A stretch of DNA of 25,713 nt. It comes from a virus. Lineage: Duplodnaviria; Caudoviricetes. Positions 4,078 through 25,207 of this stretch are shown here, piece after piece (the first letter of the stretch is position 1; every line of letters starts with the position of its first letter). The position numbers and the translations under genes were made by a program. The notes under the pieces are model-generated. The model had not been told where the DNA came from and did no database searches. It saw only the letters and a list, made by a program, of their open reading frames with translations. The stretch is taken from the IMG/VR virus record IMGVR_UViG_3300007640_000209, positions 1 through 25,713 of that record; one strand, 5' to 3'.

Positions 4078-7000
4078 CTAGTCTAAACTTTTAGACAAAT
4101 CCTTAATCATTTGTTCAGAATGATCTTTCCACCACATCGATTGAGTGAACGGCAACGTGTAGTAAAAATTAGTTAAGGCTTCGCTGTATTCTCCACGAGA
4201 AACATTGCCGCCAATGTCCAAGAAGTCTTTGATCTGGCTTGCCGGGGCTCCAAGAACAGTTGCAGCAGCCTCTGCGTAACCCGGTTTTCCATAGAATCCT
4301 AAGCGAACAAAGTCGTTGTCAGGATTGTTTAGATCAAGCTGAACAGCAGCACGCAAACCAGTCATGGCAATGTCGCCATAGATTGCGGAAATGCCGCTAC
4401 GCTCAACAGCAGCCATGAAACGCTGGTCGTAGTCCATTTCTTCCCAAGCCCACTCAGGAGTGCGGGCCTTTGCCAGCAAGTATCCAAAGCCGAGCATAGT
4501 AGCAAAACCACCAAAGGCATTTTTAATCTGACCTTGGGCAGTAGATTGAATAATGTTTGTCGCCGCAGACATCGGCCAGTTGTAGAAAACAAAAGGCAGA
4601 GTCATTACGCCACTTTCCATAACAGCGTAGCCCGGGAACTTTTTGTCTTCCTCAATATCAGGGAAAATCTTACGAGCAGTTTTGATTGGAAAGAATATCT
4701 TGCCATCAGCATACTTAAAGCGAGTGGCAGGCGACGAAGACAAGATTGTGTTTTGGATATTGCTAGCAACAGCAGACCTAAATCTAGCAATCGTGTCAGC
4801 AGATACACCAGCTTCAGCCCATTGCTCTAAGTTGCCAATGAAAAGACCAGCCTTTGTTTTAGTTAAAGGTGCCTTTGTGGCTATCTCATCAAGCGCAGAA
4901 ATAGGTAAGCCGTATCTCAAAGCCTTGTTTAACTGATATTGCGAAGCAGTGCCCTTAGATACATTCATTGCAATTTCAGCAAACTCATGGATGGACAAAG
5001 TGCCAGTGAATGTTTTCATGCCAACAGTCATTGGGCCAAGGCCGTTCAAAACAAAACTTGTTGACTTGATCGTATTCCACTTGTTGCCAAGAGCACGGAC
5101 ATTGCTGTTCTCAATGGTGTCTAGCTGCGTAGTGCCAAGCGACAACTCAGCAGCTTCACCAATAACCGACTGAATTTGTCCAAACTGTTTGCGATATTCA
5201 ACGCTGTCTATTGCAGACGCAGCACCACGAACAATGTTCTTAAAGCCATTCTCCATAATGATCTTTGGAACGTCGCCAATAGTAGTTACACCAGACGATT
5301 GCAGATAGTTTACGCTAGTAAACTCCTTCAAAAACTGGACAGTTTTGTTAGTAAATGTAGTTGGGTCAGAGACAACATCGTTTGTTACTCGCTCAAACAA
5401 ACTGGTTGTCTCTTTGCGAAGCTGGTTTGCTTTCTTCAAACTCATACCGTTGTCGATAAGATCATCAACCAATTCATCCATAAGGTCTTCATAGGTTCTG
5501 TTGCCAAACATCTTCGAAAACTCAACCTTTTGAGAATTTCGAAGCATGTATCGACGCATAACGTCCGTTACGTCAGTGTTGATAAAGTCCAAGACTTTGG
5601 CGTTTGGAATGTTAAGAACACGGCTTGGCATCCGTTGGCTTCTAAACGCTGAAGAAGACTTTTGGCCGGGCTCTGAAGTTATAGATTTTATGTATGAGTC
5701 AACAAAACGATCTTGTGCCTCAAGATCGCCAGTCATGTCCTTGGGCTTCCACAAGCCGCTCTTGTTGTCATACTCAACACCAAAAGGGTTCTCGCGAACA
5801 TACTCAGTGATGATCTTTCGAAACATCTTCTGGCCTTTTTCATCTTCTGAGATTTTGTCGGCCAAAAACTCGCGAGTGTAATAAGGCTCACCATTGCCAG
5901 TTGGCTTGAATTTGCTGTTAGTTATAAACTCAAGGCTTGCTTGCAATTCATCAACCTCTTCTTCAAGGCGCTGAACCTTTGCAGTGTAATACTCTGTTGA
6001 GTCTGCATAGTTTTTTGAAATAGCGTTTTGGAGTTTTCCCCTAGCTTCCTCTAAACGCATCTCTTTTATAGCTACGCGCGAAGAAACAAAGTCACGAGAA
6101 CCCAAAACACCAACAGCTTCTGCCTCTTCAGCAAAATCACCAAACACTTTGGTCATTAACTCGGCAGACTTTGTTTCTTGAGGTGTCATAGCCGCGCCAG
6201 TAATGCGCTTAATGTTTACATTCCGCAGCCATGCCTCAAAGCTATCATCAGCTTTTGTCAACTTGCGCAAAATGTTTGAACCAAACCCAGCGTCAGTAGC
6301 CTCTTTCCAAAGTTTTGCTTGCTGTCGCTCATATCCAATAACATCTGCCACACGCGCAGATGATCTTTGATAAAGGCTAGGCTTAATTGTCATGCCAACC
6401 AAGTGACCGTTAAGCAAAAGCGCAGAGTCGTTGGCAATCTCAAGCGTTGTTCGCTTAAAGTTGTTCAACGCTTGCGCCAATTTCTTAGGCGTTTTCTTCG
6501 TAATCGGTTCACGAAGAACGGTCTTTAAGGACGTTGGCATTAACTTATCAAGCGGGTCAGCCATGCTTGATACAACATTCCAAGGATCAATTTCCATCTG
6601 ATCTACAACACCCTTGTCGAGCCTACGAAGAGTAAGTTCATCAAGGTATGACTTTTTGTCAGACTCAAAACCAGAAATCCTTGTTAGGATTGATTCTTCA
6701 GAAACACCCTCAAGTTCTGGGGCACCAGACTTTATTCTTTGAAGTGTAGCATTTAAGCCCATAATTTCTTCGTTGGCATATTGAATGCCAGTCCGAATAT
6801 CTATGTCGGTAAACTCTGCATATGGCCGTGATGCAGGCGGCTCTGCTAAGAGGATTTGGTAGTTCTTCTCGAAGTGGCGCATCTCAGTAATTGTTTGAGC
6901 GTGCTCACCCAGTCTATTGCGCGCGTTAGAAAGAAGAAGAGCGCCAGCTTTAGAGCCGCCAGAAATACCTGCTGCAAACATTCCGCTAAACAATACAGCG

Positions 7001-7511: not shown

Positions 7512-10500
7512 TTAGTTATTCCCTGCTGGAGCCACAGAACCAAACGCGCCAAAATCAGACGGGTCAGTGTTCGTTGGGAGAACAAACTTTTTGGTTAGAT
7601 CGGGCATTTCTATGCCTTTTGCTTTCAAAGCGTCACGCAAAGTAAAGGTAACACCAGTTGCTTCAATGAGCCCGAGTTCATTAGCCACAAGCAGTTGATA
7701 CTTCGGGCTGCTTGGCGTTGAGTCAAAAGTTTCCCCATAGAGAATCCTACCCTCTCCGCCACGAGCGCGTGCAATCTGATCGCTGATTGTCATTTTGCCA
7801 GAGACTGTTCGAGCGGTATCTTCAGCAAGTTCGCCAATGTAAGATGCGCCACGATAAAAATCTTCGATAGCTACCTTCGAAGCTGGCTCAAAGTAAACAT
7901 TTTCCAAGCCATTGCTTTGGATAAGTTGAGGAATGTATGCCTCAACAATATCAATTCCGCCTTCAACATATCGATCAGGCGAGAAGCTAGACGAAGAACC
8001 CCTGCCCCAACCGCTATACATATTGTTGTTCTGGACGTATTCACTGTCCAAAACATTCTGCAAGTTTTGCTGCAGCTTTGCGTTAAGCGTTGGAATGCCA
8101 GCCATTACTACAGCTAGGTTAGCAAACTCATTGATTTGTTCTGGGCGAATGCCTTCCAAGTCTGCAGCCAAAGAAGAAGGGTCTTCATACTTTTTGTTTG
8201 TGCCAACATAGACTTGCTTGTTGACCAGTTCTTTGTCCGTCGAAACAAGCCGAATTTGGTCGATAGCAGCCTGCATTACTTGCGCTTCCATGCCTGCCGG
8301 AAGTTTCTGAACGGCCTGAACAATCATAGTAAACTTACTAGCGTCAGAGCCCAGCGATAGCTTGGCCCCAGCAGTTAGCTTTATGTTGCCGTTAGAGTCT
8401 TGGAAAAACAAAAGTCCATTTGCCCTTTGAGCAAAAGACATCATTTGGCTTTCTGGCAAACCGCCACTCATAAATGCAGACGTTGCGCTTACAATCGACT
8501 CAGGCAAGATGCCGCGATTGTTCATAATGTCGCTTAAAACTTCCACATCTTTATCAGACAGTTCGGGCTTATACATCAGGTCTGATATTTGAGGAACGCC
8601 ATGCTTGTCTTTGAGAATGTTCTCATAAGCAATCCGCCCATCAGTCTTAGACGCGCCGACTGTATATGAGCCTTTGTCAATCAAGCCAAAATCTGACTGC
8701 TTCTTGTTATACTGCTCAGTCAAAGCACGGCTGTTGTTTAGTTTTGTGTAAACACTAGAAACCGAACTCGCCAAAGCTGCTCTGTCAACAGAGACTTCTT
8801 TGCCGTTGACGATAACGCTTCTCTGAGTCAGATCATTGAGGAACTCTTTTTGCTCGGGCGGCAATGAAATGCTAACGTCTGTCCCACTAAGATATGCGCT
8901 CCAGTTTGAAAGCTGTTTAAGAGACAGGTCGTCTTGCTTAAACGAATTCATCTCACGAGCAACGTCTTCCGAAACAGACTTATTAAGAGCCTGAAGAGCA
9001 AAACTTTCAACCGTAGCTGGGTCTTGGTCCATCTCACTAGCAAGTCGCGTCAACCTAGAAACAGACTCATTTAGGTTTTCAGAATTAACGCTGGTCACAA
9101 TAGTGTTGGCTTGCGTGACAAACTCTTCATTGCGGCGCGACTTAACTAACTGATCTCGCTGTGCCTTAAGATCACCAAGCGATTCAGGCATTGAGTCAAC
9201 GCTACGAAATGACTTTTTGAAACCTGCAATGGCGTTGTCTATTTCTTCAATAGAGGCATTGGGGCTGCGTATCAGGCTAGCAAGATCAACCTTTGCTGCG
9301 CGCATACCTTGCTTTAAGGTATTGGCCTCGTGGTTGATGCCAGTCTCAACGCCAGCAAGAATGTCAGAAACAGCGCCAGATAATGCGTCACCATTTACAG
9401 AAACAAGCTGTGTTGAAACGACATCATAAACAGACTGTCCAAGCAAGCTACGCAAAGCGGCTTTTGAAGCGGCTGTTTCTGGGTTTTTTAAGATGTCACG
9501 ATAAACTTCAAGTTCTTGTTTGGTCGCGCCATTTTGAATGGATTTGTTGATCTCTCTTGAAATAGCGCCCTTAGCAAGCTGAATTAACCCTTCGTTTGTT
9601 TCCTTTTCAATCTTCAACAATTTATCGGCACTAACGAAGTTAGGGTCTAACCCATCATCCAATGCAAGCAGCCGTTTCTTTTCTTGCATTATGCTAAGTG
9701 GATCACCAGTAAAGCCTGCGCTGAAAGAACTGCCCTCATTGTTAAGTTTTGTTTGCTCAACAATCCTTGCATCCGCATCGGCCTTGTTAGCTTCTTCCGA
9801 TGCTTTCAGTGCAGCCTCATCACGTTTTTGCTGGGCCTCAATAGATGAAGAAATATAAGTCGCACTCTTTTCTGCGGCAGCAAACTCTGGCTTTAGAGTT
9901 TCTGCAATCTCTGTGTAGTCAATTCTCTCGTCTACATCGAAAGCAACTTCCAATGAAGCAATGAACTCTTTGCCCTTGGCATTAAGCAGAGAATAAAGAG
10001 CAGGGTTTTTCCCATCGTTGAGAACCTGATAAATAAGACCAGCCTGAGAAGACAATGCAGGGTCTTGCATCTTGCCAGAAACAGCGCCACGCAAATATGA
10101 CTCACGTATTTCTTTGCCGCGTTTTGTCGTTACGTCAGGGGCACTTGCGCCAATAGCCTGAGCATCTGCCTCAACAGCGCGAAACTCTTGAGTTGTTTGA
10201 CCAAGAGCAAAAGGCGAACCACTTAACCCAGCGTCATAGGCACTACGCTTTGCAGCATCATGTCTGCGCGCGGCTTCGGCTTTAGCTTCAGCTTGCATCC
10301 GCTTGATCTGAGCAACATGCAAACGAGTGCGACCATCGCTTAGATGTTCAGCGCCGTGGTCAACAATAACTTGCTTATAGTAACCAGAAGCATCACCGCT
10401 GAGGCCAGACAGGTATTCAGAGAAAGCCTTCTCAAATAGCTTTGGTGCGTTGGGAGATTCCCCAAGACGCGCCATAAGTTCTGATTTCTTAGCAGAAATG

Positions 10501-10823
10501 TTGTCTACGATTGCGCCTTCAAACCGACGAAGAGCAGCACGCTCAAAGGCATCACGAGAAAACCTACCCATGTCTTGAGCAAGCTGCATTGCCATGGGCA
10601 CTTTGGTATCTGGATCAAGCTGCGTAATCGAAGACAGTGGCGCTTCCGCAGCAGCAATTTCACCTCGCTCAATAGCATCGCCTTTAGCGATCTCATATTG
10701 ACGAGAATAAATTTGGTCAGCTAGGCCAACCACTTCTTGAGCAATACCTTGGTTATAAGGGGCTACCCGGTTTACACCGATAGGCTGGATTCCGAACTGT
10801 CGCTGACTACGTTTAACTGCCAT
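7512..10823 (-). CDS. Internal virion/ejection protein (T7 gp15 positional equivalent)
   Basis: 1103 aa, Ala/Glu/Lys-rich helical. N-term MAVKRSQRQFGIQPIGVNRV. Synteny and TAATG coupling. Confidence 0.65.
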   Translation of the reverse strand: MAVKRSQRQFGIQPIGVNRVAPYNQGIAQEVVGLADQIYSRQYEIAKGDAIERGEIAAAEAPLSSITQLDPDTKVPMAMQLAQDMGRFSRDAFERAALRRFEGAIVDNISAKKSELMARLGESPNAPKLFEKAFSEYLSGLSGDASGYYKQVIVDHGAEHLSDGRTRLHVAQIKRMQAEAKAEAARRHDAAKRSAYDAGLSGSPFALGQTTQEFRAVEADAQAIGASAPDVTTKRGKEIRESYLRGAVSGKMQDPALSSQAGLIYQVLNDGKNPALYSLLNAKGKEFIASLEVAFDVDERIDYTEIAETLKPEFAAAEKSATYISSSIEAQQKRDEAALKASEEANKADADARIVEQTKLNNEGSSFSAGFTGDPLSIMQEKKRLLALDDGLDPNFVSADKLLKIEKETNEGLIQLAKGAISREINKSIQNGATKQELEVYRDILKNPETAASKAALRSLLGQSVYDVVSTQLVSVNGDALSGAVSDILAGVETGINHEANTLKQGMRAAKVDLASLIRSPNASIEEIDNAIAGFKKSFRSVDSMPESLGDLKAQRDQLVKSRRNEEFVTQANTIVTSVNSENLNESVSRLTRLASEMDQDPATVESFALQALNKSVSEDVAREMNSFKQDDLSLKQLSNWSAYLSGTDVSISLPPEQKEFLNDLTQRSVIVNGKEVSVDRAALASSVSSVYTKLNNSRALTEQYNKKQSDFGLIDKGSYTVGASKTDGRIAYENILKDKHGVPQISDLMYKPELSDKDVEVLSDIMNNRGILPESIVSATSAFMSGGLPESQMMSFAQRANGLLFFQDSNGNIKLTAGAKLSLGSDASKFTMIVQAVQKLPAGMEAQVMQAAIDQIRLVSTDKELVNKQVYVGTNKKYEDPSSLAADLEGIRPEQINEFANLAVVMAGIPTLNAKLQQNLQNVLDSEYVQNNNMYSGWGRGSSSSFSPDRYVEGGIDIVEAYIPQLIQSNGLENVYFEPASKVAIEDFYRGASYIGELAEDTARTVSGKMTISDQIARARGGEGRILYGETFDSTPSSPKYQLLVANELGLIEATGVTFTLRDALKAKGIEMPDLTKKFVLPTNTDPSDFGAFGSVAPAGNN

Positions 10824-18294: not shown

Positions 18295-19818
18295 TTAGAG
18301 GCGCGCCCAGAGCCCTTGCCTGCGCTGCTTCTTTGGCCCCTTGTTAAACACATCGAAGTCGCGCTTGGCAACCGTAGGCTTGGCTGGCTTCTGGCTATTC
18401 ATAAGCGCCCTGCCTTCACCAGCGCCCAGCATTAGATATTGCAGTGCATCGTGGATGTGGCTGAACATATTCTTATCGGGCTTATCGGCGTAGCGTTCAC
18501 CGCTAACCTCCATGCGCTTGTAGGCATACCCGCCCTCGAAGCCTTTGATTAGCATAGAACAGCGACGGTCTAAAATAAACGCAGGCTTGCCCTCAACCAT
18601 CTTCATTAGCTGAGAGGAGACAGCTTCCAGTCGAAGATCGACCGAGTTCGAGTGCGTAGGGAATGCGCGCAGTCCAGCGCCGCGAAGTATCTGAAAAGGA
18701 GTTGATTCGTCAGTCTGTGCCCTAAAGTCACCAGCAGGGTCGCCATAGATATAGACATCAGAACAAGCAGAGAAGCGTGAGGATAGTTCATTTCTCAGCA
18801 CCTCGGCAAACCTGACAATACCCATATCTACGGCCACGATCTCAGATTGGATCAACCAGCGGCCACGCACTTTCTGACCAATCGCCGCTGCTGGCGTCAA
18901 GCCAAAGTCTACGCCAACATACACAGGAAGCCCCGCAGCAATCGGGATTTCTTCCTTGGCGATATGAGCGTCTGGTGCAAACATTGGATACACTGGCTTC
19001 CCGTCCTGAACATGACCGAGCCTGTTCATTACATAAACATCGATCCATGATTTTGTCTTACCCTGAATTAGGTTTGGATAATAAGACTTCATCATGTTCC
19101 GCTGGTTCTCAGCGTCAGGATTAGGCTTATATCCTTCGATCTCACCTTCTTCGTTGCGCGTCTCGACCATGCCCGATGGCTGGGTAAAGAACTTCCAGTT
19201 ATCTGGCGTCACCAGCATCTTGGCTTGTTCGCGCGGGATGTGGTCCGGGATTGGAACCTCACCAGCCATGATGGGCCACCAATGATCTTCTTCAGGCGCG
19301 TTGGTATCGGCAATAACACCAGTCCAAGAAGGACCGCCATCACGCATAGAAGGATAACGGCCAACACGCATCGTGCAGGCATCGATAATACTTTTAGGAA
19401 TCTCTCGCGCTTCATTGATCCAGATGCCTGTCAATTCCAATGACAGCAGCTTCTTGACATCTTCAGGGCGGTCTAAGGCTAAGAAGATAACCTCAAGATC
19501 AATGTCGCCCTTCTTGATATGGTGGGTGTAAGGAACCGACCAAGTGAACTTGCCCCAGTCATTCTCTGGGAACCAGTCAAGCCAAGTCTTAATCGTAGTG
19601 GTTCTTAGCTGCGGGTTGGTATTACGAATAATGGCCCAGCGGCTTTTGCGTTTGCCATCTGGGCCCTTCTCTTGCTGCAATGCGCGGCGGAACACCTCGA
19701 CACAACAGCCAACCGACTTACCGCTACCAACCGGACCGCGTATTCCTCGGAAGAACGTATCGTCCTTCATAAAGTCTTTCAGGACATCGCCATCCGGTTT
19801 GTATTTGAACTCAATCAT
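18295..19818 (-). CDS. terL: Terminase large subunit
   Basis: 507 aa. Walker A GPVGSGKS, Walker B GIWINEARE, coupling motif DTN, RNase H-fold nuclease VGVDFGLTPA ... SHIHDALQY. Confidence 0.95.
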   Translation of the reverse strand: MIEFKYKPDGDVLKDFMKDDTFFRGIRGPVGSGKSVGCCVEVFRRALQQEKGPDGKRKSRWAIIRNTNPQLRTTTIKTWLDWFPENDWGKFTWSVPYTHHIKKGDIDLEVIFLALDRPEDVKKLLSLELTGIWINEAREIPKSIIDACTMRVGRYPSMRDGGPSWTGVIADTNAPEEDHWWPIMAGEVPIPDHIPREQAKMLVTPDNWKFFTQPSGMVETRNEEGEIEGYKPNPDAENQRNMMKSYYPNLIQGKTKSWIDVYVMNRLGHVQDGKPVYPMFAPDAHIAKEEIPIAAGLPVYVGVDFGLTPAAAIGQKVRGRWLIQSEIVAVDMGIVRFAEVLRNELSSRFSACSDVYIYGDPAGDFRAQTDESTPFQILRGAGLRAFPTHSNSVDLRLEAVSSQLMKMVEGKPAFILDRRCSMLIKGFEGGYAYKRMEVSGERYADKPDKNMFSHIHDALQYLMLGAGEGRALMNSQKPAKPTVAKRDFDVFNKGPKKQRRQGLWARL

Positions 19819-20153
19819 TTCATATCACGAACACGGCCAACCTTGGCACTAAGACGCTTAGAAAGGGCAACTGCCTTGGCTGGGCTGCCAACAACAACAT
19901 AATCTTTCCGCAGTCTTGCTTGAGCAAATGCTTGTTCATCATCCAGTTTGCGCAGCTTACCACCAAGCATACGAATAGTAGGATAGACAATTTCTTTGCC
20001 ATCCAACTCGGCAGATGCAGTGCGCATAGTCTCTTGGTCTTTGGTTGTTGGAGTGCTCTTGTTTAAAGCACGGCGCAGCCAGCCGGGGACTTTGCCATCT
20101 GGCGTTTTAGGAAGCGGGCCAGCCCCCGCCATAGGCTTCTGTCCTTTAGGCAT
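19815..20153 (-). CDS. Hypothetical basic phage protein (MPKG start)
   Basis: 112 aa, SD GAGGA, ATGA coupling to terL. ELDGKEIVYPTI motif of a small phage protein family. Confidence 0.75.
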   Translation of the reverse strand: MPKGQKPMAGAGPLPKTPDGKVPGWLRRALNKSTPTTKDQETMRTASAELDGKEIVYPTIRMLGGKLRKLDDEQAFAQARLRKDYVVVGSPAKAVALSKRLSAKVGRVRDMK

Positions 20154-20165
20154 GACCCAATCCTC

Positions 20166-20345
20166 TTATTTTGTATACTTAAACGCGTTCTTGCGAGCAG
20201 AATTTTTCTTCATTTCTTTCAGCTTGTCTAGCATATCCATCAACTCACGATCACGCTCTGTGCCGGGGCGAGGGTTTGAAAGAAGAAGAGAACTTGCCTT
20301 GCGGCGCTCAGCAAGAGTTAGTGGGCGTCCAGTTCCTTTGGGCAT
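20166..20345 (-). CDS. Hypothetical basic protein, 59 aa (MPKGTGRPLTLAERRKASSLLLSNPRPGTERDRELMDMLDKLKEMKKNSARKNAFKYTK)
   Basis: Below the ORF-track cutoff; translated by hand. TAATG coupling with the upstream gene; fills the gap. Confidence 0.75.
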   Translation of the reverse strand: MPKGTGRPLTLAERRKASSLLLSNPRPGTERDRELMDMLDKLKEMKKNSARKNAFKYTK

Positions 20346-20545
20346 TATCTTAATCCTTTGTCTACACCGAAACGAATCATGCGCTCGGCAATCTCTGGGC
20401 CAAAGCTATCAATCAGCTTGTCGCACTCTTTGTCAGTGACGAAAGCCTTGCCGTGCTTAGCTTCGACGTGCGCAAAGTGAACCTTACGCACAATACCGCG
20501 AAGCAAGTCTCTGTCTTGCCGGGAAAGCTGAGAAGAAAAAGCCAT
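20345..20545 (-). CDS. Hypothetical phage protein
   Basis: 66 aa, coupled on both sides (TGATG / TAATG). Confidence 0.8.
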   Translation of the reverse strand: MAFSSQLSRQDRDLLRGIVRKVHFAHVEAKHGKAFVTDKECDKLIDSFGPEIAERMIRFGVDKGLR

Positions 20546-20790
20546 CAGGGAACCTGCTTGGTATCCATCTTGTTCGCATTCTTCAGCAAAGCCTGCTGTC
20601 GCATTGCGATCTTGCGGCGCATCGCCTTAACATTAGAAGGCTCGTTTTCACCAGTATAGCCAGTGGTATAAGCCTTGAAGAGGCTCTTTACCTTCTGCAA
20701 CTTGCTTTGCGTCGTTGCATTCTTCAACTGAGTTTCCAACGCGCCCATCTTTGCAAGCGCGCCTTGACGCGGGTTCTGTCCTTTAGGCAT
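20545..20790 (-). CDS. Hypothetical basic protein (MPKG start)
   Basis: 81 aa, Lys-rich, tightly packed in the operon. Confidence 0.75.
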   Translation of the reverse strand: MPKGQNPRQGALAKMGALETQLKNATTQSKLQKVKSLFKAYTTGYTGENEPSNVKAMRRKIAMRQQALLKNANKMDTKQVP

Positions 20791-20793
20791 TGC

Positions 20794-21003
20794 TCAATCC
20801 CATGCTGTTGCGCCTTTCGGCTTTGGTTCTGGCTTCTTTCTAGGCAGCTTAGGCTTAGAAGAAGGGGTGATCGGTTTCTTCTGTTCAAACCAAACGAGAG
20901 GGCGGGACTCGGCGGTGCGGGTAGCACCAGTGTAATACCTGCCAGCTAACTCATGCGTCGGGCCATCATACACATCATCCGTATGCTTGATCTTCCAAGC
21001 CAT
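20794..21003 (-). CDS. Hypothetical phage protein
   Basis: 69 aa. YDGPTHELAGRYYTGATRTAESRPL core plus Pro/Lys tail; TAATG coupling. Confidence 0.75.
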   Translation of the reverse strand: MAWKIKHTDDVYDGPTHELAGRYYTGATRTAESRPLVWFEQKKPITPSSKPKLPRKKPEPKPKGATAWD

Positions 21004-21263
21004 TATGCTTTCCCCGCATTTTTGTTGCGCTTGATAGAACGATTGGCAGCTTTGCTTAGAAGACGAAGGTTGGACTTGCTGTTGTTCTTAGGATTGCCAT
21101 CCTTGTGGTCAACGTCCTTGCCATCGTTCCTCTTAGCAACGCCAGCCTTCTCAAGTGCATAACGAGCCCGCTTTCGAGCGCGGTTCTTGTCAGCACGGGC
21201 CTTGTCATACTTACCTTCGCCATTCATCGAATAGTCGCGAACGTAATTCTTACCGCTAGGCAT
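21003..21263 (-). CDS. HNH endonuclease (packaging region), probable start MPSGKNY (86 aa)
   Basis: DGKDVDHKDGNPKNNSKSNLRLLSKAANRS HNH-type motif. ATG overlaps the upstream stop (ATGCCTAG). Confidence 0.85.
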   Translation of the reverse strand: MPSGKNYVRDYSMNGEGKYDKARADKNRARKRARYALEKAGVAKRNDGKDVDHKDGNPKNNSKSNLRLLSKAANRSIKRNKNAGKA

Positions 21264-21438
21264 TGGAATAATCCACATTCAACATAGTGGTCCGGCGCTC
21301 CTGTCCAGTCCGAACACGTCCATACTTAGGCTCGCGCTTCCTCTTCTCGCTCATGCTGAGAGAAGGAAGAGGCTCTGCCTTCGGCTTGATCTGCTGATAC
21401 CGCTCTTCAGCAATGCTGGCTGCGCTACGTCCACACAT
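21256..21438 (-). CDS. Small basic protein with Met-Cys start
   Basis: 60 aa, SD AAGGA, operon packing. Confidence 0.65.
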   Translation of the reverse strand: MCGRSAASIAEERYQQIKPKAEPLPSLSMSEKRKREPKYGRVRTGQERRTTMLNVDYSNA

Positions 21439-21441
21439 ATC

Positions 21442-21735
21442 TTAATCCTTCTTTGCTTTGTTCCGCTTGCTAATAGCCCTAGCCTTCGCTTTAGCATCAG
21501 CCTTGGAACTAGCGCCCCATGCCCTTAAGCTAAGAAGAAGACGCGTCGGCCGACCCTTCTCATCACGCTCAGGCCCATTCATATTCCCCATGCGCGCCAA
21601 GAAACTAGCACGACGAGGATTGTCACCACTCTTAACAGGAGGCTTCAATGTCCCCTGCTTATAGGAAGCGCGCCCCTTGGCGTTCAAACCACCTTTAGGG
21701 TTCTTCCCCTCCTTGCGTGTCCACGCTGGTGTCAT
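21442..21735 (-). CDS. Small basic phage protein, DUF6321-like (probable start MTPAWTRKEG, 97 aa)
   Basis: AWTRKEGKNPKGGLNAKGRASY...RRASFLARM...PTRLLLSLRAWG signature; SD GAGGAG. Confidence 0.8.
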   Translation of the reverse strand: MTPAWTRKEGKNPKGGLNAKGRASYKQGTLKPPVKSGDNPRRASFLARMGNMNGPERDEKGRPTRLLLSLRAWGASSKADAKAKARAISKRNKAKKD

Positions 21736-21817
21736 GACCAACACTCCTCAATGCAACCTTAGCCTTGCTAGTATCAGACTTCTTAGCAACTTCAGGCTTC
21801 TTACTATACTTTGACAT
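21695..21817 (-). CDS. Possible 40-aa basic peptide MSKYSKKPEVAKKSDTSKAKVALRSVGHDTSVDTQGGEEP
   Basis: SD GGAG with good spacing to the ATG at 21817. Overlaps the next gene by 41 nt. Confidence 0.5.
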   Translation of the reverse strand: MSKYSKKPEVAKKSDTSKAKVALRSVGHDTSVDTQGGEEP

Positions 21818-21950: not shown

Positions 21951-22328
21951 CTAACCAAGGTCAATGCTTACCCGGATGTCGCCAGCCACCTGTATCTGGC
22001 TGCGATCTATCGGCTTGAACCCAGCGCGGTCTAGCAAATCCTGTGCCGCTTGCAGCTTGACATACTCGCTCTTGCCGTTCTTAGCCAGCCCTGCCACTGT
22101 CCCGACAGCCATAGCTGCGTGCTGACTAAATGCCTCTGCTGTCACCTGCATCAGGTATTGCTGCACGTGCGGAGTCTTCATCGCTTTCCATGCGCTAGTC
22201 CTTCCGCTGTTGCCCGGCGCGTATCCGGCTTCCTCTGCAGCTTTCGTCAGGTTTCCACCGTTGGCAACATACGCTTCCACGAGGTTACGCTGTCTTCTCG
22301 TTATTGGTCGCATTGCTGGAACGTTCAT
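21951..22328 (-). CDS. terS: Terminase small subunit
   Basis: 125 aa. ITRRQRNLVEAYVANGGNLTKAAEEAGY...KAMKTPHVQQYL HTH (Terminase_2-like); VKLQAAQDLLDRAG; SD AGGAG. Confidence 0.88.
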   Translation of the reverse strand: MNVPAMRPITRRQRNLVEAYVANGGNLTKAAEEAGYAPGNSGRTSAWKAMKTPHVQQYLMQVTAEAFSQHAAMAVGTVAGLAKNGKSEYVKLQAAQDLLDRAGFKPIDRSQIQVAGDIRVSIDLG

Positions 22329-22344: not shown

Positions 22345-22367
22345 CCCCCCTCTCCCTCTCTCCCCCC
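22345..22367. repeat. Homopyrimidine mirror repeat CCCCCCTCTC-CCT-CTCTCCCCCC in the terS leader
   Basis: 23-nt pure C/T tract with 10-nt mirror arms. Confidence 0.7.
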
Positions 22368-22368
22368 G

Positions 22369-22407
22369 TTGATAGCACGTCTCTAAACCCCTGTGTCAAC
22401 GCACAAA
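22369..22407 (-). promoter_or_regulatory. Late-promoter motif copy 4 fused to a sigma70-like promoter: TTTGTGCG-TTGACA-N17-GCTATC
   Basis: The motif's TTG is the start of a perfect TTGACA. CGTGCTATCAA lies downstream, ~45 nt before the terS ATG. Confidence 0.75.
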
Positions 22408-22507
22408 CGTGAGGCGTAGAGCCCCCTTCTGGGTCTCTTCGCGTTTATTTGGGCAGAGAGGTGGGTGCCACGCTCATTCCTAGCGCCGTGCTAATGCTAC
22501 TCCGTGC

Positions 22508-22520
22508 CATTGATACAATG
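22508..22520 (+). promoter_or_regulatory. Extended -10 (TG-A-TACAAT) inside palindrome CATTG-ATA-CAATG; candidate rightward early promoter/operator
   Basis: TGnTACAAT at 22511-22519; no good -35. Confidence 0.45.
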
Positions 22521-22639
22521 TGCCTGCTGTTAACCGGGCCTAGTCAGGCCCGGGCAGGCAGGGGGAGACACGGCCTGTCTCCCCCTTGCGCCTAGGGCGC
22601 ACCCCCGCTCGACGAGAATAAATAGTGGCCTAAAGGCCA
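22521..22639. other. Cluster of short GC-rich hairpins
   Basis: TGCCTGC..CCGGGCCT-AGTC-AGGCCCGG-GCAGGCA; GGGGGAGACA-CGGCC-TGTCTCCCCC; TGCGCC-TAG-GGCGCA; TGGCC-TAAA-GGCCA. Confidence 0.75.
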
Positions 22640-22651
22640 AGATGAAAGGTG

Positions 22652-22895
22652 ATCCTCTGGACGAAAGCCGTCCGAGGGGGGCGGGGACATTCGCGTAGAC
22701 GGGGTAGAACCTGCTGGCAATGACGGATAGTGACACCCTTCTCTTCTCTGGCATTTGCTGTTCCGTGCCACTCCTGCGTCGGGCACGGGCAAATGCTGGC
22801 AGCAGGGGCCCGTCACGATCCTATGCCAGCAGAACCTACCCCGTCTTCTCGATGTCCCCATCCCGCCCCCCTCGGTCGCCTTCCGACCGGAGGAT
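22652..22895. repeat. ~244-nt imperfect inverted repeat (rod-like hairpin); candidate ssDNA promoter/single-strand origin or structured RNA
   Basis: Successive paired blocks: ATCCTCTGG/CCGGAGGAT, CCGAGGGGGGCGG/CCGCCCCCCTCGG, GGGGACAT/ATGTCCCC, AGACGGGGTAG/CTACCCCGTCT, CTGCTGGCA/TGCCAGCAG, GGAT/ATCC, GTGAC/GTCAC, GCATTTGC/GCAAATGC, CCGTGCC/GGCACGG; terminal loop ~22770-22781. Confidence 0.9.
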
Positions 22896-22951
22896 GCGGG
22901 ATGAAAAAATCAAATGGAAATGGCTAACGCCCTAAATGGAGAACCTAGATC

Positions 22952-23434
22952 ATGGCTAAGCAAATCACAGACACAAAGGCAATGGAGACAATCAACAACG
23001 AGGCCCGCGCAATCGACAGCGCGCCCACCACCTCGGATGTAGTGGAATTCGCAGCCGATGCAGCCGCAAATATCGCCGCTGTTTTCGGCACCAACGACTA
23101 CCAACTAGAGCGTATCGCCCGCCAGTTCGTGCAGTCCGCCGAGTATCTGCTACGCTACAAAGCAGAGGACGTGACCGCCCAACACGCCAAAGTTATCGAG
23201 GCCGAACAGGCCGTGCTGGATAACCGGGCGATGGCAGAAACCACGCTTGCACGCAGCCAGACCTTGCTTGAGGCAAAGCAGTGCGAGGAACGCGACCTTG
23301 CCCTTTTCCGCAAGGCAATGATCAGCGCCTACGAAGGCGTCACAGGCAAAGCCTACGAAGCCTTGCCAGTGAAGAAGGCAGCGCCCCGCGCAGAAACACC
23401 GGCCGAGCGACTAGCCCGACTGAAACGCGCATAA
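22952..23434 (+). CDS. First early gene; helical hypothetical protein
   Basis: 160 aa, SD GGAG, biased codon usage, followed by hairpin GGGCGGC-ACCTA-GCCGCCC. Confidence 0.85.
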   Translation: MAKQITDTKAMETINNEARAIDSAPTTSDVVEFAADAAANIAAVFGTNDYQLERIARQFVQSAEYLLRYKAEDVTAQHAKVIEAEQAVLDNRAMAETTLARSQTLLEAKQCEERDLALFRKAMISAYEGVTGKAYEALPVKKAAPRAETPAERLARLKRA

Positions 23435-23443
23435 CCTAACAGG

Positions 23444-23746
23444 GGGCGGCACCTAGCCGCCCTCGCCGCGCGAAATAGAATCCGGCTAGTCGCCGGATGC
23501 ACAGGATAAACTGCCAGAACCTAGAGGGCACACGACTCCTGACCTCACACGCTACGCGGTCAGGGGCTTTGCCCCCGACACCCCCAGCAGGGCCATGCTG
23601 CCCCTTGCATCCCTTGCCCGGTGCTCACAACCAACGTGGGTTTCACAACCGATAGGACCAGAACCGCCGGCGTCCCGCCGGGCGGGAAGCCAGGAACACG
23701 TTAGGGACTTTACTACGGTGAGATTGTGGTGTGCGGCTTGTCCGCA
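23444..23746. other. Second structured intergenic region with tandem G-run/C-run/C-run motifs (23563-23613) and several hairpins
   Basis: GGGCGGC/GCCGCCC; ATCCGGC-TAGTC-GCCGGAT; CTGACC/GGTCAG; GGGGC-TTT-GCCCC-CGACA-CCCCC; TCCCGC/GCGGGA; TGCGG/CCGCA; direct repeat TCACAACC x2. Confidence 0.7.
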
Positions 23747-23781
23747 AATGTTTTCAACAATTCAACTCATGGAGAACCAAA

Positions 23782-24009
23782 ATGAAATACAGTTACACTG
23801 ACATCAACGACGTTCAAATCAACATCACCTTTTCGCTTAACGACGTTCAGCGTTTGCGTGATTGTGTAAGGGACTTTGAACCTGAAGAACACAAATGGAT
23901 GTTCAAACAATTCAAAGAAACTCTCAAAGAATCGGAGTTAAAAGCTGCCGAGGCAATGGACCTTGAAGCAAGGCATATCAAACGGGAAAACAAAGATGAA
24001 ACCAATTAA
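23782..24009 (+). CDS. Hypothetical early protein (probable start MKYSYTD, 75 aa)
   Basis: SD GGAG (ATGGAGAACC) before the ATG at 23782. Confidence 0.75.
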   Translation: MKYSYTDINDVQINITFSLNDVQRLRDCVRDFEPEEHKWMFKQFKETLKESELKAAEAMDLEARHIKRENKDETN

Positions 24010-24151
24010 TCTTATCCACACACCAGACAACTGGGAAGAAATCATGGAGTGGATTCATCGCCACGCCCCAGAAGATCGTGCTCACCTTGTCACTGCTGCT
24101 GGCATGGCATGGAACCTAGCACTCAAAGCAATGGAGAACGAAAATGTATGA
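23996..24151 (+). CDS. Hypothetical early protein (probable start MKPINLIHTP, 51 aa)
   Basis: Short overlaps with both neighbours. TPDNWEEIMEWI...TAAGMAWNL looks globular. Confidence 0.7.
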   Translation: MKPINLIHTPDNWEEIMEWIHRHAPEDRAHLVTAAGMAWNLALKAMENENV

Positions 24152-24992
24152 CTTCACACCCCAAGCATGGGAATTTCCCGTCGAATCACAGCCTGTTTTT
24201 GACCAGCTAGGCAATCCTATTCAGGGTAGCCAAGCTGTTGTGCGCACTGACACCAATGAAGTGCTCGGTGTGCATGGCTCACGCTATCGTGTGCTTAGCC
24301 ACGATGATGTGGTCAACAGCCTAATGGATGCAGTCAAAGAGTCTGACCTTAGCAGTGACTACAAACTCAAGGTCAAGGTAATCGAGGGTGGTCGTAAACT
24401 TCGAGGTGAAATCTTATTTAATAATATCACCATCGAACCTGCTGTTGGCGACATAGTTCAGTATCGCATCAGCTTCTTCAATAGCTATGATGCAAGCTGG
24501 TCTTTCTCTCAAGCAGCAGATGGCCTGCGCTTGTGGTGTCTCAACGGATGCACAACGCCAATGGGCACTGGCCGTTCTGTCTTCAAGCACACGCAGTCAA
24601 TCAACGTCGAGGGCAGTGCTAAGAAGATAGCTGGTGGGCTCGACACGTTTATGAATAACCGTGAACTGTGGCAGAACTGGATGTCGGTGCATGTCACTGA
24701 CCACATGGCCGAAGCATTCTTCAAAGCAACGATTGCCAAGACAGCATCACGTCAGCAGCTAGTGATGAAGACCAACGAGAAGCAGCTTGAGAATCTGTTG
24801 GCTATCTGGACAGCAGAGAAAGCGCAACTCGGCTCCAACAAGTGGGCTTTGTATAACGCCATGACTTACTGGGCTACGCATACTCAAGACCTCAAGAACC
24901 CAGACGTTGCACGTCGCAATCGCGAAGACGCAATCGCCAAAGCAATGAAGCATGACCGCTTCGAGAACCTAGAACTAGAAGGAATCTTCTAA
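24144..24992 (+). CDS. DUF932/DUF945-family protein
   Basis: 282 aa. AVVRTDTNEVLGVHGSRYRVLSH, FFNSYDAS, RLWCLNG, KHT and WALYNAMTYWATH are the family motifs. Confidence 0.88.
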   Translation: MYDFTPQAWEFPVESQPVFDQLGNPIQGSQAVVRTDTNEVLGVHGSRYRVLSHDDVVNSLMDAVKESDLSSDYKLKVKVIEGGRKLRGEILFNNITIEPAVGDIVQYRISFFNSYDASWSFSQAADGLRLWCLNGCTTPMGTGRSVFKHTQSINVEGSAKKIAGGLDTFMNNRELWQNWMSVHVTDHMAEAFFKATIAKTASRQQLVMKTNEKQLENLLAIWTAEKAQLGSNKWALYNAMTYWATHTQDLKNPDVARRNREDAIAKAMKHDRFENLELEGIF

Positions 24993-25207
24993 TGCATACC
25001 ACACCTCGCATGACTCGTGCTCATTACGAGTTTATCGCAGACACCATTGGGCCACTCGTATCGTGGCCCTCTCACCTACATGTAGTGGCTGACGAACTGG
25101 CAGCTACTAATCCTAGGTTTGACAAAGAAAAGTTTCTGCGTCGTGCAGTCAAAGCATGGGAAGATCGACATGACATTCAAGAAATTGACGACGAAATTCC
25201 ATACTGA
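24992..25207 (+). CDS. Small conserved phage protein (MTRAHYEFIAD...NPRFDKEKF type)
   Basis: 71 aa, TAATG coupling. Confidence 0.8.
   Translation: MHTTPRMTRAHYEFIADTIGPLVSWPSHLHVVADELAATNPRFDKEKFLRRAVKAWEDRHDIQEIDDEIPY

What the first reader, a model, noticed from the sequence alone, without database searches (positions are those of the whole stretch)
22400..25207. Early region organised like a conjugative-plasmid leading region
Seen: Frpo-like rod, three sso-like G/C-run motifs, two long structured spacers, strong repeated RBSs and a DUF932 gene, all next to terS. Known: DUF932 genes and ssDNA promoters occur in plasmid leading regions, although DUF932 is also common in phages. Unverified recollection: the 160-aa protein's C-terminus (ERDLALFRKAMISAYEGVTGKAY) resembles a helical segment of proteins in alphaproteobacterial conjugative elements. 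Inference: if packaging starts near terS and runs leftward, this block is the first DNA ejected. It would then be a phage leading region for immediate anti-defence or takeover expression, possibly involving a single-stranded phase. This is the best candidate for an undescribed system in the window.
Basis: inference. Interest (0 to 1): 0.72.

Follow-up and report, generated by a model that had tools for sequence, protein, structure and literature searches.

The report
Plasmid-style single-strand promoter in phage
A tailed double-stranded-DNA phage carries, in front of its likely first-expressed genes, a long DNA fold-back that is predicted to fold best on the template strand and likely acts as a promoter only when that DNA is single-stranded, a trick known from conjugative plasmids and untested in such phages.

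Summary
The rod at 22652-22895 is real (z about -8 to -10). It lies between terS and the first early gene of a 35-kb podophage related to Pelagibacter phage Hodr. Relatives keep a rod here, in several unrelated sequence types. In 58 non-redundant relatives it folds better on the template strand (54/58; coding control 20/58). DNA-type GNA mini-hairpins fall on that strand 39 to 1. A paired -35-like box precedes an unpaired -11 A or bubble. The relatives' rod tip matches DNA beside the transfer origin of rhizobial plasmids (31/31 nt); this window's rod does not. DUF932 or ArdC follows, never both (47, 11, 0 of 96 loci). Best reading, about 55%: an Frpo-like single-strand promoter for the first genes. 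Not shown: any single-stranded phase, genome-end position, promoter activity or anti-defence function. The 160-aa protein belongs to a helical-hairpin family found only in phages here; the recalled plasmid link was not found. The second spacer and the sso-like motifs are weak. This scan proposed the same idea on other phage DNA (e1-8686067, e1-9788554, e1-9703416).

The parts
21951..22328 (-). terminase small subunit, start of the late operon
   Evidence: PF03592 E 9e-7, PHROG 2538; 42% to Hodr terS
22345..22367 (.). 23-nt C/T tract just upstream of terS; conserved family signal, function unknown (packaging/terminus or late-leader candidate)
   Evidence: about 340 IMG/VR stretches hold it exactly (estimate); terS beside it in 74 of 80 loci
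22394..22399 (-). TTGACA pointing at terS: candidate -35 of the late promoter (inferred)
   Evidence: TGTCAA in 36 of 58 relatives, 13.5-fold over background
22400..22651 (.). cluster of short GC-rich hairpins
   Evidence: z -3.6 (plus) / -5.2 (minus)
22652..22895 (-). 244-nt imperfect fold-back rod; candidate single-strand promoter on the template strand
   Evidence: (DNA -83.2 minus vs -77.6 plus)
22715..22720 (-). TTGCCA, -35-like box (5 of 6 to TTGACA) on the non-template arm; TTGACT/TTGACG in homologous rods
22692..22697 (-). TACGCG, 17 nt after the -35-like box; only 2 of 6 to TATAAT, its -11 A is predicted unpaired
22770..22782 (-). rod apex: C(GCA)G triloop flanked by GA/GA, a DNA-type mini-hairpin on the template strand (approximate limits)
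22859..22903 (+). alternative hairpin that would cap the 5' end of a transcript starting near 22862 (predicted +1)
   Evidence: inverted repeat I7; leader fold
22952..23434 (+). first early gene, 160 aa, antiparallel helical hairpin; member of an unnamed phage family that holds this slot in relatives and in Hodr
   Evidence: no Pfam/PHROG hit
23435..23781 (.). second spacer: terminator-like and small hairpins, short motifs resembling plasmid DNA (23549-23613); weak
23782..24009 (+). 75-aa ORF, unknown
   Evidence: RBS at 23771
23996..24151 (+). 51-aa ORF, unknown; a similar sequence occurs in relatives
24144..24992 (+). DUF932 (YubP/YgeB family) gene
   Evidence: Pfam E 2e-16; in 47 of 96 relatives' loci
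24992..25207 (+). 71-aa ORF, the most widespread small early gene of the family, unknown
   Evidence: 63 of 96 loci

Best explanation
The 244-nt fold-back in front of this phage's likely first early gene is predicted to fold best on the template DNA strand and likely works as an Frpo-type promoter that host RNA polymerase would read only when this stretch is single-stranded, which would drive a burst of the 160-aa protein and possibly the small ORFs and DUF932 behind it. Shown: the rod, its conserved position, the strand bias, the box-and-bubble geometry and the cargo. Inferred: the far arm supplies the non-template strand (-35-like box in duplex, unpaired -11 A). The in-place copy carries mismatches, or an extra hairpin in relatives, so the rightward promoter would not exist in duplex DNA. 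Transcription would start near 22862 with a 5' cap hairpin. Least supported step: the single strand would arise by 5'-to-3' resection of a genome end lying left of the rod (host nucleases or the phage's YqaJ exonuclease), which leaves this 3'-ended strand; conversion back to duplex would switch the promoter off.
For: Position: a rod precedes the first-gene family in the relatives examined and in Hodr (63 WC pairs), in several unrelated sequence types. Strand: template fold more stable in 54 of 58 as DNA and 44 of 58 even with RNA parameters. ORF1 coding controls 20 of 58; bias exceeds own shuffles in 51 of 58; unpaired template bases are 66% purine. In a strand-neutral alignment, mismatches read on the coding strand are pyrimidine-pyrimidine 438 vs purine-purine 151, and A-C 164 vs G-T 101, unlike a selected mRNA structure. 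DNA vs RNA: GNA mini-hairpins 39 template vs 1 coding; shuffles mean 17, max 29; middle base free, outer pair covarying. Such mini-hairpins are far more stable in DNA than RNA (passages of PMC13037366; the RNA comparison there is for the 4-nt-loop form). Geometry: in 43 of 58 relatives TTGC[GA]A is fully paired and followed by a purine-rich bubble at about -10 to +2; its template copy lies 84-95 nt from the ATG in 42 of 43. In the window and 7 homologous rods the -11 A is invariant and unpaired, and predicted +1 opens a 5' hairpin. In the window's subfamily the rod ends 30-60 nt before the ATG, so it does not hide the RBS. Plasmid link: a relative's rod tip hits intergenic DNA of rhizobial plasmids (best E 8e-6, 31/31). 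All 6 inspected hits lie about 160-200 nt past a TATCCTGCC motif, and 4 of the 6 sit beside annotated mobC/relaxase genes. F's element before klcA shares the tip motif and the bias and resembles, by eye, candidate Frpo' 4 of PMC11541004. Cargo: DUF932 in 47, ArdC in 11, both in 0 of 96 loci; ArdC in Hodr. F's Frpo1 drives ygeAB (PMC9849209 passages), and the second gene there is DUF932. The complete genome encodes a YqaJ exonuclease.
Against: No single-stranded phase, genome end or transcript start was observed. Contig ends near the terS tract are 9 of 27, p=0.09. The -10 hexamers are non-consensus (2 of 6 in the window), and I chose the box assignments after seeing the folds. The window's own rod has no plasmid match and is not hit by the model of the relatives' rods. 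Its own strand margin is modest (-83.2 vs -77.6); a coding control in the window showed a similar margin (-60.9 vs -54.0). In its subfamily the template strand wins only 9 of 14 (five by more than 5 kcal/mol), and mini-hairpins split 5 to 5. The true F Frpo1 and Frpo2, cut to 260 nt, showed no template preference, so the energy test is not diagnostic of Frpo. The 58 rods are related, not independent. In most relatives the rod base pairs with the RBS and start codon, which also fits RNA-level gating. In the rhizobial plasmids, by the recalled RP4 nic convention, the better-folding strand is the retained donor strand. That fits a priming site as well as a promoter. In duplex DNA, TTGCCA-17-TACGCG could be a plain leftward promoter towards terS.
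Confidence: 0.55

Rival explanations
1. The rod is a single-strand initiation signal (ssi/sso type): RNA polymerase or primase makes a primer on the folded template strand to rebuild duplex DNA after resection or during rolling-circle replication; gene expression is incidental.
For: Same strand bias and mini-hairpins. Mini-hairpins mark primase sites of G4 and ssiA (PMC13037366 passages). The title of Masai and Arai 1997 gives Frpo both roles (reference list). The plasmid copies sit beside a nic-like motif, apparently on the retained strand (orientation recalled). No DNA polymerase was recognised among the ORFs listed or scanned.
Against: Fixed distance to the first ATG (84-95 nt in 42 of 43), a 5' cap hairpin and a strong RBS point to an mRNA. 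Some relatives appear to have a second small rod before a further gene (L005, L014).
Confidence: 0.2
2. The rod is an RNA structure: a leader of the first early mRNA that gates the RBS or is cut by RNase III, or part of an antisense/late RNA.
For: Folds strongly as RNA (z -8.6). The rod base pairs with RBS and ATG in most relatives and in Hodr. There is an alternative local hairpin, as in RNA switches. A/T-rich promoter-like motifs lie upstream in relatives. A minus-strand RNA would share the strand bias.
Against: On the mRNA strand A-C exceeds G-U, and pyrimidine mismatches dominate. DNA-type mini-hairpins sit on the other strand. No Rfam match. The RBS is outside the rod in this window.
Confidence: 0.12
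3. The rod extrudes as a cruciform from supercoiled duplex DNA (N4-like activation by supercoiling and SSB), giving the same hairpin promoter with no true single-stranded phase.
For: GNA-capped hairpins occur in N4 early promoters (figure legend in PMC13037366). It needs no genome end.
Against: A 244-nt rod with many mismatches and bulges should extrude poorly (inference). No virion RNA polymerase was recognised, though the 1103-aa ORF has no family hit.
Confidence: 0.08
4. The rod is part of the packaging or terminus signal beside terS, or a product of template switching with no function.
For: Always adjacent to terS and the conserved C/T tract.
Against: Shape is kept while sequence is replaced. 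Distance is fixed to the ATG, while terS-to-ORF1 distance varies from 333 to 1023 nt. Compensatory changes in 7 of 19 consensus pairs.
Confidence: 0.05

Closest known systems
Frpo / ssi single-stranded-DNA promoters of F and ColIb-P9 leading regions (PMC9849209, PMC11541004; passages and supplement 7 read)
   Same: Long stem-loop on the template strand upstream of small genes; -35-like box in duplex with mismatches at the -10 region; DUF932 among the downstream genes; a tip motif shared between relatives' rods and F's element before klcA.
   Different: It is in a virulent-looking dsDNA podophage with no oriT or relaxase seen. No sequence similarity of this window's rod to Frpo1/2. The -10 is non-consensus. 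Genes would point away from the entering end, so ssDNA must arise another way.
Unnamed hairpin just past the nic-like motif of rhizobial mobC/relaxase plasmids (L149-L154)
   Same: Up to 31/31 identical tip with relatives' rods, same orientation to the downstream gene, mini-hairpins on the same strand (19 vs 0).
   Different: Similarity is limited to about 30-40 nt. It is absent from this window's rod. I found no description of its function.
Pelagibacter phage Hodr (OQ414635)
   Same: terL 65% identical; same terS | rod | first-gene family layout; cultured, so it is the test system.
   Different: Low GC, different rod sequence that pairs with its RBS, ArdC instead of DUF932.
N4 early hairpin promoters
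   Same: Template-strand DNA hairpin with a GNA-type loop in front of early genes.
   Different: N4 uses short hairpins and a virion RNA polymerase (details recalled); here a 244-nt rod with sigma70-like spacing and no recognised phage polymerase.
LUZ24-like and phiKMV-like phages with nicked virion DNA (PMC3517423 passages)
   Same: terS is weakly similar (about 31-32%) and lies near the record end in UFV-P2 and phiIBB-PAA2; nicks are a known source of single-strand character in podoviruses.
   Different: The tf nick consensus is absent from this genome; the role of the nicks is unknown.

Membership tests
Frpo/ssi ssDNA promoter | Long stem-loop on the template strand upstream of the genes served | tested here: met
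Frpo/ssi ssDNA promoter | Canonical -35 and -10 boxes rebuilt in the stem | tested here: inconclusive
   -35-like 5 of 6 at 17-nt spacing; -10 only 2 of 6, with unpaired -11 A
Frpo/ssi ssDNA promoter | Sequence similarity to known Frpo/ssi elements | tested here: not met
   window rod has no significant PLSDB hit; model R1 does not hit the F leading region; only relatives' tips match plasmid DNA
Frpo/ssi ssDNA promoter | Transcription by host RNA polymerase from ssDNA but not dsDNA | not testable with these tools
   needs in vitro transcription
Conjugative leading region | Adjacent oriT/relaxase and transfer as a single strand | tested here: not met
   complete 35.3-kb phage genome; no relaxase or T4SS family among the 22 window ORFs and 10 further ORFs scanned or recognised in the ORF list
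Conjugative leading region | Enrichment for anti-defence/establishment families | tested here: inconclusive
   DUF932 (family 3 in PMC11541004 supplement 6) or ArdC; no SSB, Psi, MTase or TA family among 47 early-ORF representatives scanned
Conjugative leading region | First DNA to enter the cell | tested here: inconclusive
   contig-end tests and assembled contigs cannot place the termini
Rolling-circle plasmid sso | CS-6/RS-type motifs in a structured non-coding region (motif names recalled) | tested here: inconclusive
   one TAGCGT at 23549-23554 (minus); plasmid hits E 0.09 or worse
N4-type hairpin promoter | Virion-packaged RNA polymerase | tested here: inconclusive
   none recognised by Pfam/PHROGs; the 1103-aa ORF is unassigned
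Known structured RNA (Rfam 15) | Match to a covariance model | tested here: not met
   best E 0.33, far below gathering scores

The most novel reading that the evidence does not exclude
A widespread family of small aquatic podophages, including a cultured Pelagibacter phage, has a programmed single-stranded phase at the entering genome end. It uses plasmid-type single-strand promoters, in part sharing sequence with plasmid oriT-adjacent elements, as a sensor that fires the first gene and ssDNA-protecting or anti-restriction cargo (ArdC or DUF932) when the end is resected, and shuts off on repair.
Probability: 0.3. Interest if true: 0.88.

Novelty: new variant of a known kind. Interest (0 to 1): 0.68.

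Why it matters
Host-polymerase single-strand promoters are known from conjugative plasmids, where DNA arrives single-stranded. Finding their design fixed before the first gene of a family of dsDNA tailed phages would imply an unrecognised single-stranded step early in infection and a timing switch tied to DNA-end processing. It is directly testable: the element is a 250-nt oligonucleotide, and Hodr is a cultured member. The strict either/or of DUF932 and ArdC also gives a lead on DUF932, one of the largest uncharacterised plasmid leading-region families. I found no paper describing this in six searches, which cover only CC-licensed PMC and bioRxiv.

Tried and rejected
Plasmid/ICE homologues of the first ORF: none by tblastn of 3 family members against PLSDB. 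One of those also found none among GenBank phages. The one genome hit is a phage contig in an archaeal MAG; that scan used a single peptide pattern, so distant bacterial members could be missed. Function from fold: AlphaFold gives a helical hairpin (pLDDT 83). Foldseek PDB has no E<0.001; VIA-align hits are generic two-helix matches, Z 11.3 and lower; BFVD gives two uncharacterised phage proteins; the Atlas gives unnamed clusters. A Gam-like role was considered and has no support. Rfam: nothing. Genome ends: contig-end clustering not significant; assembled contigs of 4 runs show no joint, inversion or informative depth step. IMG/VR's 'direct terminal repeats' label for G001 reflects a circular assembly, not mapped termini (my reading). 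Nick-site idea: the tf consensus is absent from the window and the rest of the genome scanned; the TACTA-type motifs enriched in relatives are absent from this window's spacer. Consensus sigma70 scan: nothing in the spacers. Consensus fold of 20 aligned rods recovered only the tip and the 5' hairpin (19 pairs); the long stems align too poorly for a covariation test. MEP301 has a different layout around terS and was dropped as a comparator. The 15-nt match between spacer 2 and F lies in the opposite orientation and was found post hoc; not counted. File 5 of the PMC11541004 supplements (scanned figures) could not be read; it may bear on box positions in Frpo.
Full report
Setting. The window is 25.7 kb of a podophage. 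The 3.4 kb tested are identical to a 35,292-nt IMG/VR record classed as complete (G001). It has a T7-like virion module, terL and terS on the minus strand. The rest of the genome has an HTH initiator-like gene, a YqaJ exonuclease and a lysozyme. The closest cultured phage by terL is Pelagibacter phage Hodr (65%). The host is unknown; an alphaproteobacterium is my inference. The finding covers the divergent junction between terS and the plus-strand early operon.

Observation. The rod at 22652-22895 is far beyond chance (z -8.1 DNA, -8.6 RNA, 0 of 200 shuffles). DUF932 and the repeated GGAGAAC RBS are confirmed. The second spacer is only mildly structured (z about -2.4), and its plasmid hits are not significant. 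No Rfam family matches.

The first gene. The 160-aa ORF has no Pfam or PHROG hit and folds as an antiparallel helical hairpin with only generic structural matches. A profile search gave 188 representatives. A profile built from 116 of them, leaving out the 14 with a BLAST hit to the window's protein, still scores it at 42 bits (500 shuffles at most 9.6) and Hodr's first ORF at 63 bits. The set was seeded with the window's protein, so some circularity remains. The main branch has 158 viral stretches against 1 hit in 185,579 genomes, itself a phage contig. Three members have no PLSDB hit.

The rod is a family feature. Relatives found through terS, the first gene or a rod motif have the layout terS, C/T tract, rod, first gene, small ORFs, DUF932. 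The rods come in several unrelated sequence types. Hodr has one of 63 Watson-Crick pairs. Of 112 loci with the main branch's motif, 110 had enough upstream DNA, and 58 remained after removing near-duplicates. These are related, not independent.

Which strand and which molecule. The template strand folds better in 54 of 58 as DNA and 44 of 58 as RNA. Coding DNA of the same loci does so in 20 of 58, and the bias beats each rod's own shuffles in 51 of 58. Read on the mRNA strand, mismatches are pyrimidine-pyrimidine 438, purine-purine 151, A-C 164, G-T 101. GNA mini-hairpins lie 39 to 1 on the template strand (shuffles mean 17, max 29), with a free middle base and a covarying outer pair. PMC13037366 (passages) reports that such motifs are much more stable in DNA than RNA and occur at single-strand initiation sites. 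Against this: the window's own margin is 5.6 kcal/mol, and a coding control in the window shows 6.9. In 14 loci of its subfamily the template wins 9, five clearly, and mini-hairpins there split 5 to 5 in 10 loci. F's Frpo1 and Frpo2, cut to 260 nt, show no strand preference, while F's element before klcA does.

Promoter geometry. On the template-strand fold, 43 of 58 relatives have a fully paired TTGC[GA]A followed by a purine-rich unpaired zone where an open complex would lie. Its template copy is 84-95 nt from the ATG in 42 of 43. The window reads TTGCCA, 17 nt, TACGCG. Seven homologous rods printed from 11 loci given (the others were duplicates or lacked the pattern; the seven form two or three groups) read TTGACT or TTGACG, share a GGTTCT internal loop, and have an unpaired A at -11, as the window does. 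In each, the predicted +1 opens a hairpin that would cap the transcript. The in-place copy is mismatched (ATGCCA, TTCTCG) or interrupted by an extra hairpin, so the rightward promoter would exist only in the fold-back. The -10 is otherwise non-consensus, several subfamily rods do not fit this pattern clearly, and the assignment is an inference.

Plasmid connection. The window's rod has no plasmid match, nor has its homologue L174. A relative's rod (L054) hits 237 plasmid records at E up to 10; the best of the 30 rows listed are its tip in rhizobial plasmids (E 8e-6, 31/31). I opened 6 of the 237. All lie about 160-200 nt past TATCCTGCC, which I recall as a MOBP nic motif. Four sit between mobC/relaxase and a parA-like gene. 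The model of the phage rods hits these six tips (E 4e-6 to 0.013) but not the window, Hodr's rod or F. By the recalled nic convention the better-folding strand in those plasmids is the retained one, which favours priming or donor-side transcription there.

Cargo. Among 96 loci, DUF932 occurs in 47, ArdC in 11 and both in none; of 70 loci reaching the end of the block, 23 have neither. Hodr has ArdC. DUF932/DUF945 is family 3 of the leading-region list of PMC11541004 (supplement row), and F's Frpo1 drives ygeAB (PMC9849209 passages), the second being DUF932. ArdC in an unrelated pelagiphage is already noted (bioRxiv 10.1101/410191, passage). No other anti-defence family was found in 47 early-ORF representatives.

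Genome ends. Not resolved: 9 of 27 contig ends fall within 250 nt of the tract (p=0.09), and assembled contigs are uninformative. If an end lies left of the rod, the template strand presents its 3' end there, which is what 5'-to-3' resection would expose. That is the reverse polarity of F-type transfer and is the least supported step.

Verdict. A real, conserved template-strand DNA fold-back that most likely works like an Frpo promoter (0.55), with a priming signal as the main rival (0.2). It is not a member of the Frpo sequence family, and the block is not a conjugative leading region. Literature searches (listings only) found no description in tailed phages. Earlier notes of this scan reached a similar idea on other phage DNA; they are not independent evidence.

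Noticed in passing
window 22345-22367: An exact 23-nt C/T tract sits 12-59 nt (most cases) upstream of terS across the family; about 340 IMG/VR stretches hold it, terS beside it in 74 of 80 checked. Candidate packaging or late-leader signal.
   Followed up: partly
L149-L154, about 5880-6110: A conserved, apparently undescribed hairpin 160-200 nt past a nic-like motif in rhizobial mobC/relaxase plasmids, with mini-hairpins only on the strand that seems to be retained in the donor (19 vs 0).
   Followed up: partly
L142 6496-6758 (F plasmid, before klcA): A third template-biased stem-loop in F's leading region with TTGCAT and a mismatched TAAGAT; resembles candidate Frpo' 4 of PMC11541004 by eye; not named in the passages I read.
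   Followed up: partly
L168 and L170, about 600-950 nt after the first-gene start: What reads as terS lies downstream of the first gene on the opposite strand, a rearranged junction (seen as an antisense frame; not tested by BLAST).
   Followed up: no
L041, L045, L052, L057 and others, between terS promoter and rod: Repeated TGACGT(T/A/G)ACGTCA-like palindromes and TACTA(C/T/A)A motifs, candidate regulator sites; absent from this window's spacer.
   Followed up: partly
L010 left arm of rod: By eye, the left arm mirrors the first about 40 nt of the first gene, a short form of the kilobase mirror copies noted elsewhere in the scan.
   Followed up: no
L141 (PBGS01000047.1): A phage of this family is deposited inside an archaeal MAG, likely misbinned.
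   Followed up: yes
window 19815-21744: A run of about eight small basic late ORFs between terS and terL, including DUF6321 and an HNH gene; several share an upstream repeat and MPKG-like starts.
   Followed up: no
window 7512-10823: 1103-aa late ORF with no Pfam or PHROG hit, in the slot of an internal virion protein.
   Followed up: no
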